Shown here: positions 17,925 to 18,702 of the stretch, in pieces
Layout: each line of letters begins with the position of its first letter
How positions within the stretch are numbered: position 1 is the first letter of the stretch
UHGV virus genome: UHGV-0036853
DNA: 64,000 bases
Source: a virus
Strand: one strand, 5' to 3'
Translations under genes and position numbers: made by a program
The notes under the pieces: model-generated
Told to the model about the DNA's origin: nothing
Databases searched by the model: none
What the model saw: only the letters and a program-made list of their open reading frames with translations

Positions 17925-18190
17925 AATTCGGCACTGCCAGTATTTATTACTCAACAGTGCCAATCGCGACGGTTTAGTTTCTGCCAGGAAACGCACCGCT
18001 ACTTGCACTTTTCGTTAGTGCCAGACGCTTTCGACTTCGCTCAATAGTAGAAGGCAAACTCTTTAAGTAGATGATGTTTCTGAGGACAGCACCTACTTTG
18101 TAATTTATACAATGTGATGTATGGAATCATTTGTTGTGAAAACAGGCACCAATGGCAACAGTGGTTAAACCTACACAACTATTCTGTCTT

Positions 18191-18313
18191 CACAACGTTG
18201 AGGCCACTACTCCGATTGAATGTTTGCCCAACATGTTACATATCAACGCTCGCCGGTATCTCTGTGAATAGAACCTTAGAATTGATAAAAATGTAATGGC
18301 CTCAACGTTGTGT
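18191..18313. repeat. 16-bp perfect inverted repeat (cacaacgttgaggcca / tggcctcaacgttgtg) with ~91-bp spacer
   Basis: Arms at 18191-18206 and 18298-18313, read directly. Confidence 0.6.
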
Positions 18314-18390
18314 GCTGGCTAACCATACCAGCCGGGCTACGTCGCCGCTTTTTAACCCAGTATAAACGACATAATTGAACAAAATGACGT

Positions 18391-18497
18391 AACAGAATGG
18401 GCGGTCAGTGGCTAAGAATCCGGGAGTCATATGGAGTTGAAAATATACCGACCGCCCATTCTGTTACTTCATCGGAGGGAACACTCATGTTCCCTCC
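18391..18497. repeat. 15-bp inverted repeat (acagaatgggcggtc / gaccgcccattctgt) plus adjacent 9-bp hairpin ggagggaac/gttccctcc
   Basis: Read directly in the ORF-poor tract upstream of the tRNA cluster. Confidence 0.55.
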
Positions 18498-18702
18498 TGC
18501 GTTCTGCAATCACACTCGCTCAGTGTGTCCCATTTCGGTAACGAGGCTGGAAACTGACCTCGCTGGTGTTTGGCTTATTAGGCTACTGCCAGATAGACTT
18601 CTTCGTTTGCACTTGTATTTAAGTTCAAACAGTCGCGTCTCAACGAAAACAAAGTCATCTTATACACAAAAGATAAGTAAGTAAATACTTATCAATATGT
18701 TT

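What the first reader, a model, noticed from the sequence alone, without database searches (positions are those of the whole stretch)
18100..18500. Cluster of long perfect inverted repeats upstream of the tRNA genes
A 16-bp inverted repeat with 91-bp spacer (18191-18313), a 15-bp inverted repeat (18391-18467) and a 9-bp hairpin (18474-18497) lie in another ORF-poor stretch, together with a copy of the atgtatggaatcat half-site (18116-18135). This density of secondary structure suggests an origin, recombination site or structured RNA.
Basis: seen in the sequence. Interest (0 to 1): 0.45.

Follow-up and report, generated by a model that had tools for sequence, protein, structure and literature searches.

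The report
Phage RNA mimicking tmRNA tag template
The inverted repeats are real and are conserved stems of a long structured non-coding RNA on the opposite strand of a phage-plasmid, whose first 180 bases look like the message part of the bacterial ribosome-rescue RNA (tmRNA) but lack its tRNA-like part, an arrangement I found described nowhere.

Summary
The repeats exist at the stated coordinates and are far beyond chance. The window is an SSU5-like phage-plasmid. The repeats lie in an unannotated 780-nt gap (17925-18702) between small ORFs and four tRNA genes, all on the minus strand. In 56 distinct relatives the arms stay paired through compensatory changes. G·U pairs outnumber A·C five to one on the minus strand, so these are most likely minus-strand RNA helices, not an origin.

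Just 5' of them (18650-18474) is a 177-nt module shared with lambdoid/P22-like phages (HK620) and Felix O1-like phages. It has:
- a start-codon-less frame, GCA AAC GAA GAA GUC UAU CUG GCA GUA GCC UAA UAA = ANEEVYLAVA** (E. coli SsrA tag: ANDENYALAA);
- the U(-5)/A(-4) frame-setting signal of tmRNA;
- the stop codon in a helix-5-like loop;
- two covarying pseudoknots.

No tRNA-like domain was found in the window or near most relatives. The long repeats are an SSU5-specific 3' extension, probably RNase III-type processing or scaffold stems.

How a tRNA-domain-less tag template acts is unresolved. It could be a trans template or a decoy for the host rescue system.

The parts
18657..18685 (-). Promoter-like element: -35 TTTACT (18685-18680), 17-nt spacer, -10 TAAGAT (18662-18657). 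Predicted start near G18650.
   Evidence: Read. The aligned hexamers in relatives are TATGAT and TATAGT. The Felixounavirus homolog has a perfect TTGACA-N17-TATAGT at the same distance from the conserved GUUUUCG. It scores below the consensus scanner's cut-off, so it is inferred, not shown.
18474..18650 (-). Core tmRNA-like module without a tRNA-like domain: 5' GUUUUCG hairpin, A-rich leader, tag frame, helix-5-like stem, two pseudoknots and a closing hairpin.
   Evidence: It is the only copy in the window (nhmmer 18654-18503, E=1.6e-36). It is shared with HK620-type and Felix O1-type phages. Covariation is shown. Rfam tmRNA models match only sub-threshold.
18575..18610 (-). Tag reading frame ANEEVYLAVA** that begins at GCA with no start codon.
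   Evidence: Translation. There are 22 tag variants AN[DE]xx[YF]LAVA in 131 loci. Outside codons 4-5 the common variable sites are third positions 9, 18, 24 and 30. The stop varies UAA/UAG/UGA but remains a stop. A(-4) is present in 140/140 and U(-5) in 114/140.
18563..18592 (-). Helix-5-like stem CUGG/CCAG (18592-18589 with 18566-18563) holding the stop codons in its loop.
   Evidence: 100% paired in 56 and in 50 sequences, but invariant, so there is no covariation evidence.
18528..18562 (-). Pseudoknot 2-like: S1 CGAGG/CCUCG (18562-18558 with 18546-18542); S2 UUUCCA/UGGGA (18553-18548 with 18532-18528).
   Evidence: Across the three phage groups, S1 has 3 of 5 pairs and S2 3 of 4 pairs with changes on both sides. 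Examples: CCAG/CUGG, CCGA/UCGG, CCAA/UUGG, CUCCA/UGGAG.
18511..18527 (-). Pseudoknot 3-like stem 1, CACACU/AGUGUG. Stem 2 is weak in this lineage (GCG/CGC) and strong in lambdoid copies.
   Evidence: S1 is 100% paired with 2 of 5 double changes. Lambdoid and Felix copies show GCCC/GGGC, GCCCUGA/UCAGGGC, GGCGGGAG/CUCCCGCC and GCCCAC/GUGGGC.
18474..18497 (-).
   Evidence: 5 of 10 pairs have double changes. It is homologous to the lambdoid/Felix helix GGUAAGAGCAUU...AGUGCUCUUUCC, which carries variable apical inserts.
18384..18472 (-).
   Evidence: 93.9% paired, 6 pairs with double changes and many G·U pairs. Recovered independently by RNAalifold.
18314..18332 (-). HP6: 6-bp stem GCUGGU/GCCAGC with a 7-nt loop NNGGUNA.
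   Evidence: 100% paired. Changes seen: G-C to A-U and U·G to C-G.
18191..18312 (-).
   Evidence: 94.6% paired, 8 of 19 pairs with double changes. Absent in the Enterobacter sp. CP102 lineage.
18133..18196 (-). I3: 13-bp stem that shares GUUGUG (18196-18191) with the 3' arm of I2.
   Evidence: The column test is inconclusive because the alignment is shifted. In 25 of 26 distinct sequences the MFE fold closes with GUUGUG...CACAAC plus lineage-specific extensions.
18117..18130 (-). Motif AUGAUUCCAUACAU directly 3' of I3; invariant in SSU5-like relatives.
   Evidence: The ORF downstream of it is not conserved (6 to 29 codons), so the motif itself is what is conserved.
16923..17924 (-). tRNA-Asn, tRNA-Tyr, tRNA-Thr and tRNA-Ser with their spacers, downstream on the same strand.

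Best explanation
The repeats are double-stranded stems of one long, highly structured non-coding RNA read from the minus strand. It runs from about 18650 down towards the tRNA genes at 17924.

Shown:
- The stems are conserved by compensatory change, with a G·U bias that fits the minus strand.
- The RNA starts with a 177-nt module (18650-18474) that reproduces the mRNA-like half of tmRNA. This comprises a resume-type GCA codon with the U(-5)/A(-4) frame-setting signal, a 10-codon tag frame under codon-level constraint that ends in a hydrophobic ...LAVA, stop codons in a helix-5-like loop, and two pseudoknots.
- No tRNA-like domain was found.
- The same module occurs in HK620-type phages between pR'/qut and tR', and inside the tRNA cluster of Felix O1-type phages.

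Inferred:
- The RNA is made from its own sigma-70-type promoter (18685-18657), by read-through from the ligase operon, or both, as the leader of the phage tRNA operon.
- I8 closes the tag module.
- I1 (26 bp), I2 (20 bp) and I3 are long perfect duplexes of the size RNase III cuts. They most likely serve to cut the tag RNA away from the tRNAs and to give it a nuclease-resistant, rigid 3' domain.
- The tag module then acts on the host trans-translation machinery, either as a template whose tag (same length and same AANDxxY start as SsrA, different end) is added to stalled proteins with the host's alanyl-tmRNA/SmpB, or as a decoy for proteins that bind this part of tmRNA (S1, SmpB).
For: - Identity of the replicon: 97-99% to E. 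coli phage-plasmids, phage CMS-2020a and Cyrano; about 78% to SSU5 and Y. pestis pMT-1.
- Stems.
- Strand: 310 G·U against 61 A·C cells. The minus-strand fold is -124.1 kcal/mol against -113.2 kcal/mol for the plus strand.
- Tag frame.
- A(-4) is invariant in 140/140, matching A86, the main frame determinant of E. coli tmRNA (PMC2481249).
- Pseudoknot covariation across three phage groups: 87.8% paired against 35-44% when slid.
- Independent weak recognition by tmRNA models, only over the message part: beta_tmRNA positions 208-304 of the model in the window; RF00023 positions 51-311 and tmRNA_permuted at 29.8 bits in the Mijalis homolog. ARAGORN reads the tag ANDNVFLAVA** in Mijalis.
- HK620 position between the annotated pR'/qut and tR'.
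- Specific to mobile elements: at least 120 viral contigs, 773 plasmids, 258 of 5426 complete E. coli genomes, but only 3 of 185,579 species-representative genomes, all Enterobacterales and none an ssrA locus.
Against: - No tRNA-like domain was found, so classical trans-translation cannot start on this RNA alone. ARAGORN finds none. No Rfam tmRNA hit appears elsewhere in the 64 kb. There is no orphan T-arm within 1.2-1.5 kb in 13 lambdoid representatives including HK620.
- All tmRNA models score below their gathering thresholds.
- There is no expression data. The promoter is sub-consensus and no clean intrinsic terminator is present.
- G·T-tolerant single-stranded DNA hairpins would give the same covariation and strand bias.
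- The helix-5-like stem never varies, so it carries no covariation evidence.
- Complementarity to host ssrA is no better than for shuffled sequences.
- RNase III cleavage is only inferred from stem length.
Confidence: 0.6

Rival explanations
1. The tag-like module is a decaying relic of a captured tmRNA gene. The repeats are ordinary operon punctuation: terminators or attenuators ending the ligase/small-ORF operon, and processing stems ahead of the tRNA genes. There would be no link to ribosome rescue.
For: - No tRNA-like domain was found.
- The region lies between an operon end and tRNA genes.
- On the minus strand I1 is followed by UUUUGUU in the E. coli lineage.
- Related hairpin modules recur as spacers in phage tRNA clusters.
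Against: - A relic would not keep, in three unrelated phage groups, an open 10-codon frame with third-position variation, a stop that changes only to other stops, an invariant A(-4) and two covarying pseudoknots.
- The U-tract after I1 is not conserved (UUUC CAUUAC in SSU5), and the terminator scan finds none.
Confidence: 0.17
2. The module is a molecular decoy only. It copies the part of tmRNA that binds ribosomal protein S1 and the frame-setting ligand, so as to titrate them or to block host trans-translation. The tag is never translated. The long stems merely stabilise the decoy.
For: - It lacks a tRNA-like domain but retains exactly the U85/A86-like signal and PK2/PK3-like knots. In E. coli tmRNA these are where S1 cross-links (stated in PMC2481249).
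- There is a precedent for a half-molecule: mycobacteriophage DS6A carries little more than the tRNA-like domain, and such a molecule inhibits tmRNA (PMC4131195).
Against: A pure protein-binding decoy does not explain synonymous-type variation at codon positions 9, 18, 24 and 30, nor the preservation of a stop through UAA/UAG/UGA.
Confidence: 0.15
3. The repeats act as DNA: hairpins extruded on the minus-sense single strand as a priming or single-strand initiation signal, or another origin-type element of the neighbouring replication module.
For: - The neighbours are primase, helicase, ligase and DNA polymerase III alpha.
- G·T mismatches are also tolerated in DNA hairpins, so searches do not exclude DNA.
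Against: - There are no iterons or direct-repeat families and no skew change.
- The stems are contiguous with a tmRNA-like, pseudoknotted module and with tRNA genes on the same strand.
- pMT-1 keeps the stems although its replication region is elsewhere (IncFIB typing).
Confidence: 0.05
4. The gap encodes small proteins, such as the 29-codon MIPYI... ORF at 18130-18041 or the 95-aa plus-strand ORF at 18397-18684, and the repeats are incidental.
For: Mechanical ORFs exist. The motif begins with ATG and is identical to the start of the real 50-aa gene at 19142.
Against: Relatives differ by indels that are not multiples of three. The ORF after the motif ranges from 6 to 29 codons. Variation follows base-pairing, not codons.
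Confidence: 0.03

Closest known systems
tmRNA (SsrA, 10Sa RNA; Rfam RF00023 and clan CL00001)
   Same: - A resume codon GCA without a start codon.
- U(-5)/A(-4) upstream, like U85/A86.
- A 10-codon tag beginning AN(D/E) with an aromatic residue at position 6 and a hydrophobic end, the same length as E. coli ANDENYALAA.
- Stop codons in a helix-5-like loop.
- Pseudoknots after the frame, and a pseudoknot-like fold before it in lambdoid copies.
   Different: - No acceptor stem, T-arm or CCA, so it cannot be charged with alanine.
- The tag ends LAVA instead of ALAA.
- Only two pseudoknots follow the frame.
- It is found only on phages and phage-plasmids, as part of tRNA-operon leaders or the late leader.
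- It scores below every Rfam tmRNA threshold.
Phage-borne tmRNA genes and half-genes (mycobacteriophage Bxz1 group, Bacillus phage G, marine phage Melnitz two-piece tmRNA; DS6A 'TLD only')
   Same: A phage carries part or all of the ribosome-rescue RNA (PMC4131195, PMC9004378). DS6A shows that half-molecules exist on phages.
   Different: Those carry a tRNA-like domain, and DS6A carries only that. This is the reverse half. The 2014 census of 543 phages and 1711 plasmids reported no ssrA in enterobacterial phages or plasmids.
Two-piece (circularly permuted) tmRNA
   Same: ARAGORN and Rfam tmRNA_permuted give their best, still sub-threshold, calls in the Felix O1-type homolog. That phage also has a conserved T-arm plus closed acceptor-like hairpin about 500 nt upstream.
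   Different: In Felix O1-type phages three tRNA genes and a promoter separate that element from the tag. The acceptor-like stem lacks G3·U70. The window, SSU5 and HK620 have no such element at all.
Short pR'-tR' transcripts of lambdoid phages (lambda 6S RNA, StxS) - from my own knowledge
   Same: In HK620 the module lies between the annotated pR'/qut and tR'. It would therefore be part of the constitutive short late-leader RNA.
   Different: Those RNAs are not tmRNA-like. The window copy is not in a late leader.
Large ornate phage-associated ncRNAs next to tRNA genes (GOLLD, ROOL) - from my own knowledge
   Same: Several hundred nucleotides of densely paired RNA, phage-borne, adjacent to tRNA genes.
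   Different: No Rfam match to these families. A different host range. This RNA has a recognisable tmRNA-like module.
RNase III processing stems of rRNA/tRNA operons and T7 early RNA - from my own knowledge
   Same: Near-perfect duplexes of 20-26 bp flank functional RNAs within a polycistronic non-coding transcript.
   Different: Cleavage is untested here. The stems enclose conserved inserts of their own.

Membership tests
tmRNA (ssrA) | tRNA-like domain: 5'/3' acceptor stem with G3·U70, T-arm, 3' CCA | tested here: not met
   ARAGORN finds no tmRNA in the window or in SSU5-like and HK620-type loci. The T-arm scan of the window finds only the four tRNAs and one orphan at 17219. There is no tmRNA end-domain hit in an E-value scan of all 64 kb.
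tmRNA (ssrA) | Resume codon without start codon, preceded by the conserved U85 A86 signal four nucleotides upstream | tested here: met
   GCA at 18610. A(-4) in 140/140 and U(-5) in 114/140. SSU5 has an in-frame UGA 21 nt upstream and no start codon, and 1-2-nt indels break the frame upstream. The criterion is taken from PMC2481249.
tmRNA (ssrA) | Short tag frame under coding constraint, with a hydrophobic C-terminus and stop | tested here: met
   AN[DE]xx[YF]LAVA*. Third-position variation at 9, 18, 24 and 30. The stop varies UAA/UAG/UGA.
tmRNA (ssrA) | Stop codon in the loop of helix 5 | tested here: inconclusive
   CUGG/CCAG is 100% paired around the stop codons, but it never varies.
tmRNA (ssrA) | Pseudoknots flanking the frame | tested here: met
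   Two H-type pseudoknots 3' of the frame show changes on both sides: PK2 S1 3/5, PK2 S2 3/4, PK3 S1 2/5. The 5' pseudoknot-like fold is supported only in lambdoid copies.
tmRNA (ssrA) | Score at or above Rfam gathering threshold | tested here: not met
   Best in the window is 17.3 bits against 84 (beta_tmRNA). Best in homologs is 29.8 against 47.
Intrinsic terminator | GC-rich hairpin followed directly by a conserved U-tract | tested here: not met
   The scan finds none in the gap. UUUU after I1 occurs only in the E. coli lineage; others have UUUC CAUUAC.
Replication origin / single-strand initiation site | Iterons or DnaA boxes, an AT-rich unwinding element, a skew change, initiation mapped | tested here: not met
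   No direct-repeat families. Cumulative GC skew runs straight through. Initiation mapping is not possible with these tools.
RNase III substrate | About 20 bp or more of near-perfect dsRNA; cleavage in vivo | not testable with these tools
   Stem length is met for I1 (26 bp) and I2 (20 bp). Cleavage is untested.
GOLLD / ROOL and other curated large ncRNAs | Match to the Rfam covariance model | tested here: not met
   No hit at the gathering or E-value thresholds.

The most novel reading that the evidence does not exclude
Enterobacterial phages and phage-plasmids, including Y. pestis pMT-1, carry a free-standing tmRNA message domain. With the host's own alanyl-tmRNA/SmpB or another tRNA-like partner, it re-programmes ribosome rescue so that stalled proteins receive a phage-specified tag (AAN(D/E)xxYLAVA) instead of the SsrA tag. 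This would be trans-translation with the template supplied in trans by a mobile element. The long stems of the finding would form its processing and scaffold domain.
Probability: 0.22. Interest if true: 0.9.

Novelty: new variant of a known kind. Interest (0 to 1): 0.68.

Why it matters
tmRNA is defined by having both a tRNA half and a message half in one particle. If a conserved, widely spread message half without a tRNA half is functional, one of two things follows. Either the template can be supplied in trans, or phages use a mimic to interfere with ribosome rescue and tag-directed proteolysis.

The element is common:
- 773 plasmid records;
- about 5% of complete E. coli genomes;
- Klebsiella, Enterobacter and Salmonella phage-plasmids;
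- Y. pestis pMT-1;
- HK620-type prophages and Felix O1-type therapeutic phages.

It is unannotated, so it also bears on genome annotation. Pipelines call a 'tmRNA' in Felix O1-type phages and nothing in the others.

The hypothesis is directly testable by looking for LAVA-ended peptides.

Tried and rejected
1. Rfam at gathering and E-value thresholds found no family for the repeats. A snoR135 hit (E=0.14) only reflects two adjacent hairpins.
2. Promoter and terminator consensus scan found nothing in the gap.
3. Search for a tRNA-like domain by ARAGORN, T-arm pattern scans and Rfam end-domain hits was negative for the window, SSU5-like and HK620-type loci.
4. The ARAGORN 'permuted tmRNA' in Mijalis borrows its 5' domain from tRNA-Lys and spans three tRNA genes, so I rejected it as a gene model. 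Its 3' domain is, however, a real conserved element.
5. A 'boxA-like' reading of GUGCUCUUUCC was rejected. It is the 3' strand of a conserved hairpin, GGUAAGAGCAUU...AGUGCUCUUUCC.
6. A long-range closing helix CCAGUGC/GCACUGG in lambdoid copies is not conserved.
7. The +1 frame peptide (M/V/L)QTKKSIWQ* was rejected. Its start is not conserved (AUG/GUG/CUG) and the variable sites fall on second positions.
8. Whole-molecule complementarity to E. coli ssrA is not better than shuffles in 3 of 4 cases. Only a 9-mer (GUUUUCGUC against GACGAAAAC) stands out, and it remains untested.
9. Bacterial chromosomal origin of the tag: only 3 hits in 185,579 species genomes.
10. The origin reading is not supported by GC skew.
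11. The column-wise test of I3 was inconclusive because of a shifted alignment. It was replaced by per-sequence folds.
12. Ten literature searches found no description of a tRNA-domain-less tag RNA in these phages. Mao et al. 2009 could not be read.
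Full report
**1. Observation**

The window is an SSU5-like phage-plasmid. Region 17000-20000 is 97-98% identical to Escherichia phages CMS-2020a and Cyrano. The gap 17925-18702 is 97-99% identical to about 175 E. coli plasmids and about 78% identical to SSU5, Enterobacter and Salmonella plasmids and Yersinia pestis pMT-1.

The finding lies in a 778-nt stretch with no annotated gene. It sits between tRNA-Asn (17850-17924, minus) and a small ORF (18703-18993, minus). About 40 kb around it is transcribed leftwards.

- I2: 18191-18210 with 18293-18312.
- I1: 18384-18409 with 18447-18472.
- I8: 18474-18483 with 18488-18497.
- A fourth, I3: 18133-18145 with 18184-18196.

The longest perfect arm is 18 nt, against a mean of 7.9 and a maximum of 13 in shuffles. 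The fold z-score is -9. The motif ATGTATGGAATCAT at 18117-18130 is one of five copies in the window, against 0.63 expected.

**2. The repeats are conserved helices, best read as minus-strand RNA**

I aligned 56 distinct SSU5-like sequences (alignment A4) and counted pairs.
- 95.8% of 4180 cells form a standard pair, against 30-48% when the partners are slid by 1-3 columns.
- 23 pairs have changes on both sides, against 13.2 in shuffles and 2-6 when slid.
- Pairs with double changes per helix: I8 5 of 10, I1 6 of 26, I2 8 of 19, and a 6-bp hairpin HP6 (18314-18332) 1 of 6.
- Non-Watson-Crick cells are G·U on the minus strand 310 times and A·C 61 times. This sets the strand.

RNAalifold independently recovers I1, HP6 and two helices of the upstream module.

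I3 fails the column test because the Klebsiella lineage is misaligned. In 25 of 26 distinct sequences, however, the fold closes with GUUGUG...CACAAC plus lineage-specific compensatory extensions. I3 shares GUUGUG with the 3' arm of I2, so the two stems abut or compete over 6 nt.

There are no direct-repeat families and no GC-skew turn. An origin reading is therefore not supported.

**3. What lies immediately 5' on that strand**

Conservation into SSU5, Klebsiella and pMT-1 covers 18297-18700. A sub-segment, 18508-18662, also hits unrelated phages at about 76% identity:
- HK620 and HK633, between the annotated pR'/qut and tR';
- Felix O1-type phages, inside the tRNA cluster;
- Klebsiella siphoviruses.

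On the minus strand this segment reads GCA AAC GAA GAA GUC UAU CUG GCA GUA GCC UAA UAA = ANEEVYLAVA**. The E. coli SsrA tag is ANDENYALAA.

A scan anchored only on flanking sequence added ANEEMYLAAA and ANSDQYLAVA and nothing discordant.

Among 25 distinct frames:
- codons 4-5 are free;
- elsewhere the common variable sites are third positions 9, 18, 24 and 30;
- the stop changes among UAA, UAG and UGA but remains a stop.

There is no in-frame start codon, and upstream indels of 1-2 nt break the frame. Position -4 is A in 140/140 and -5 is U in 114/140. These correspond to U85/A86 of E. coli tmRNA, where A86 is the main determinant of the resume frame (PMC2481249).

**4. Structure of the module**

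Across 50 representatives of the three phage groups (A5), the proposed helices are 87.8% paired against 35-44% when slid.
- The stem CUGG/CCAG holds the stop codons in its loop but is invariant.
- Pseudoknot 2 has double changes in 3 of 5 pairs (stem 1) and 3 of 4 pairs (stem 2). Examples: CCAG/CUGG, CCGA/UCGG, CCAA/UUGG, CUCCA/UGGAG.
- Pseudoknot 3 stem 1 has 2 of 5. Its stem 2 varies in length with perfect complementarity in lambdoid and Felix copies: GCCC/GGGC, GCCCUGA/UCAGGGC, GGCGGGAG/CUCCCGCC, GCCCAC/GUGGGC.

A promoter-like TTTACT-N17-TAAGAT (18685-18657) precedes the module. The Felix O1-type copy has a perfect TTGACA-N17-TATAGT at the same place. In both, the predicted start falls on the conserved GUUUUCG. 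This is inferred only, because the scanner does not call it.

nhmmer finds one copy of the module in the window (18654-18503, E=1.6e-36).

**5. No tRNA-like domain**

- ARAGORN reports only four tRNAs in the window. It reports no tmRNA in any SSU5-like or HK620-type locus.
- An E-value Rfam scan of all 64 kb gives only a 17-bit beta_tmRNA match over the message part.
- The homologs in Mijalis and HK620 give sub-threshold matches, again over the message part only.
- T-arm scans find nothing within 1.2-1.5 kb in 13 lambdoid representatives.
- ARAGORN does call a 'permuted tmRNA' in Mijalis, but that model borrows part of tRNA-Lys and spans three tRNA genes.

The Mijalis model did reveal a real, conserved element in Felix O1-type phages. 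It is a T-arm followed by a closed acceptor-like hairpin and a D-arm-like segment. The hairpin is fully compensatory between Mijalis (ACCCUUC...GAAGGGU) and REP7 (ACUCGGC...GUCGAGU). The window has nothing like it.

The tag is not that of any bacterial ssrA gene. The pattern occurs in only 3 of 185,579 species-representative genomes, all Enterobacterales.

**6. Mechanism**

Shown: conserved minus-strand helices, and a tmRNA-message-like module with a constrained frame and covarying pseudoknots, on mobile elements only, next to tRNA genes or in a late leader.

Inferred:
- The whole gap is one leader RNA of the phage tRNA operon.
- I8 closes the module.
- I1 and I2 (26 and 20 bp) are RNase III-size duplexes that separate the tag RNA from the tRNAs and provide a stable 3' domain.
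- I3 and the invariant AUGAUUCCAUACAU motif may be a protein-binding or regulatory site.

How a tag template without a tRNA half works is open. I give about 0.2 to translation in trans with the host's alanyl-tmRNA/SmpB. The tag keeps the SsrA length and the AANDxxY start that SspB recognises, but ends in AVA. The SspB and ClpX determinants are from my own knowledge. I give about 0.15-0.2 to a decoy for S1 or SmpB, and about 0.17 to a non-functional relic with ordinary operon punctuation.

Whole-RNA complementarity to host ssrA is not significant. One 9-mer, GUUUUCGUC in lambdoid copies against GACGAAAAC in ssrA, is noted but untested.

**7. Comparison and novelty**

The closest relative is tmRNA. 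The module meets the message-side features and fails the tRNA-side features and all curated thresholds. It works like, or mimics, half a tmRNA, but it is not a member of the family.

Phage tmRNAs are known in mycobacteriophages, Bacillus phage G and marine phages, and DS6A has a tRNA-like domain only (PMC4131195, PMC9004378). Genome announcements merely repeat a pipeline 'tmRNA' call for Felix O1-type phages. PGAP annotates nothing here.

I therefore rate it a new variant of a known kind. The repeats themselves are ordinary RNA stems. The interest comes from what they belong to.

Noticed in passing
window 9272-9285, 15303-15333, 18117-18130, 19129-19142: The 14-mer ATGATTCCATACAT, usually preceded by (C)TAA, occurs five times. 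At 15303-15333 two copies form a palindrome between the glutaredoxin gene and the integrase start. At 19142 it is the start codon region of a conserved 50-aa gene (MIPYI...). It looks like a binding site for a phage regulator, on DNA or as a translational operator.
   Followed up: partly
window 17340-17393 and 17160-17233 (minus strand): Two further members of the I8-type hairpin family lie in the tRNA-Ser/tRNA-Thr spacer: GAUAAGAGAAC...GUUCUCUUAUC and GGUAAGAGCAUU...AAUGCUCUUUCC, each preceded by CACAACAG. The first carries the insert GGGGCUUGGCUUAAAUGCA, which is also seen in Felix O1-type and lambdoid loci. These appear to be shared spacer or processing modules of phage tRNA clusters.
   Followed up: partly
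window 17203-17219 (minus strand): An orphan T-arm-like hairpin, CAGAG UUCGACU CUCUG, sits inside the second hairpin module. ARAGORN does not call it as a tRNA. Similar orphan T-arms (GAGGG UUCGAAU CCCUA) lie inside the same helix in some lambdoid loci (L014, L107, L124).
   Followed up: partly
L003 about 2075-2130 (minus), L224 990-1045: Felix O1-type phages carry a conserved T-arm followed by a closed acceptor-like hairpin and a D-arm-like segment. The order is that of a circularly permuted tRNA. The hairpin is fully compensatory between Mijalis and REP7. In Mijalis the loop begins with GCCA. The segment is conserved in about 248 phage records. REP7's annotation calls it a 131-nt tRNA-Thr.
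   Followed up: partly
L006 (Y. pestis pMT-1) 1489-1501: In pMT-1 the homology to the structured RNA stops 12 nt from the end of caf1R. The F1 capsule locus sits where relatives carry the I3 stem, the motif and the tRNA genes. The tag module, I8, I1, HP6 and I2 are retained.
   Followed up: no
window 17386-17693: This spacer segment is 92% identical to the upl/plp region of phage P1 and relatives. The closest E. coli plasmid, pMRY16-002_2, has a tRNA-Ser to tRNA-Thr spacer about 440 nt shorter. The tRNA island is therefore mosaic.
   Followed up: no
window 18636-18644 and 18298-18306 (minus strand): CGUUGAGAC near the 5' end of the module repeats CGUUGAGGC in the 5' arm of I2. RNAalifold prefers a long-range pairing of the 5' region with the I2 5'-arm region (7 pairs, 3 with double changes). 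This could be an alternative conformer.
   Followed up: no
window 33263-34074 (+): Three weak, sub-threshold Rfam matches to isrG, a Salmonella island sRNA. The best is 27.6 bits, E=0.0018.
   Followed up: no
window 18703-18993 (minus): The ORF just upstream of the RNA is named 'C-type natriuretic protein' in RefSeq records. This is an implausible carried-over name for a 96-aa phage membrane-like protein.
   Followed up: no
L003 (KY654690.2): Locus coordinates in the annotation table are 58 nt lower than those given by ARAGORN, BLAST and Rfam for the same tRNAs. This is a bookkeeping offset, not biology.
   Followed up: yes
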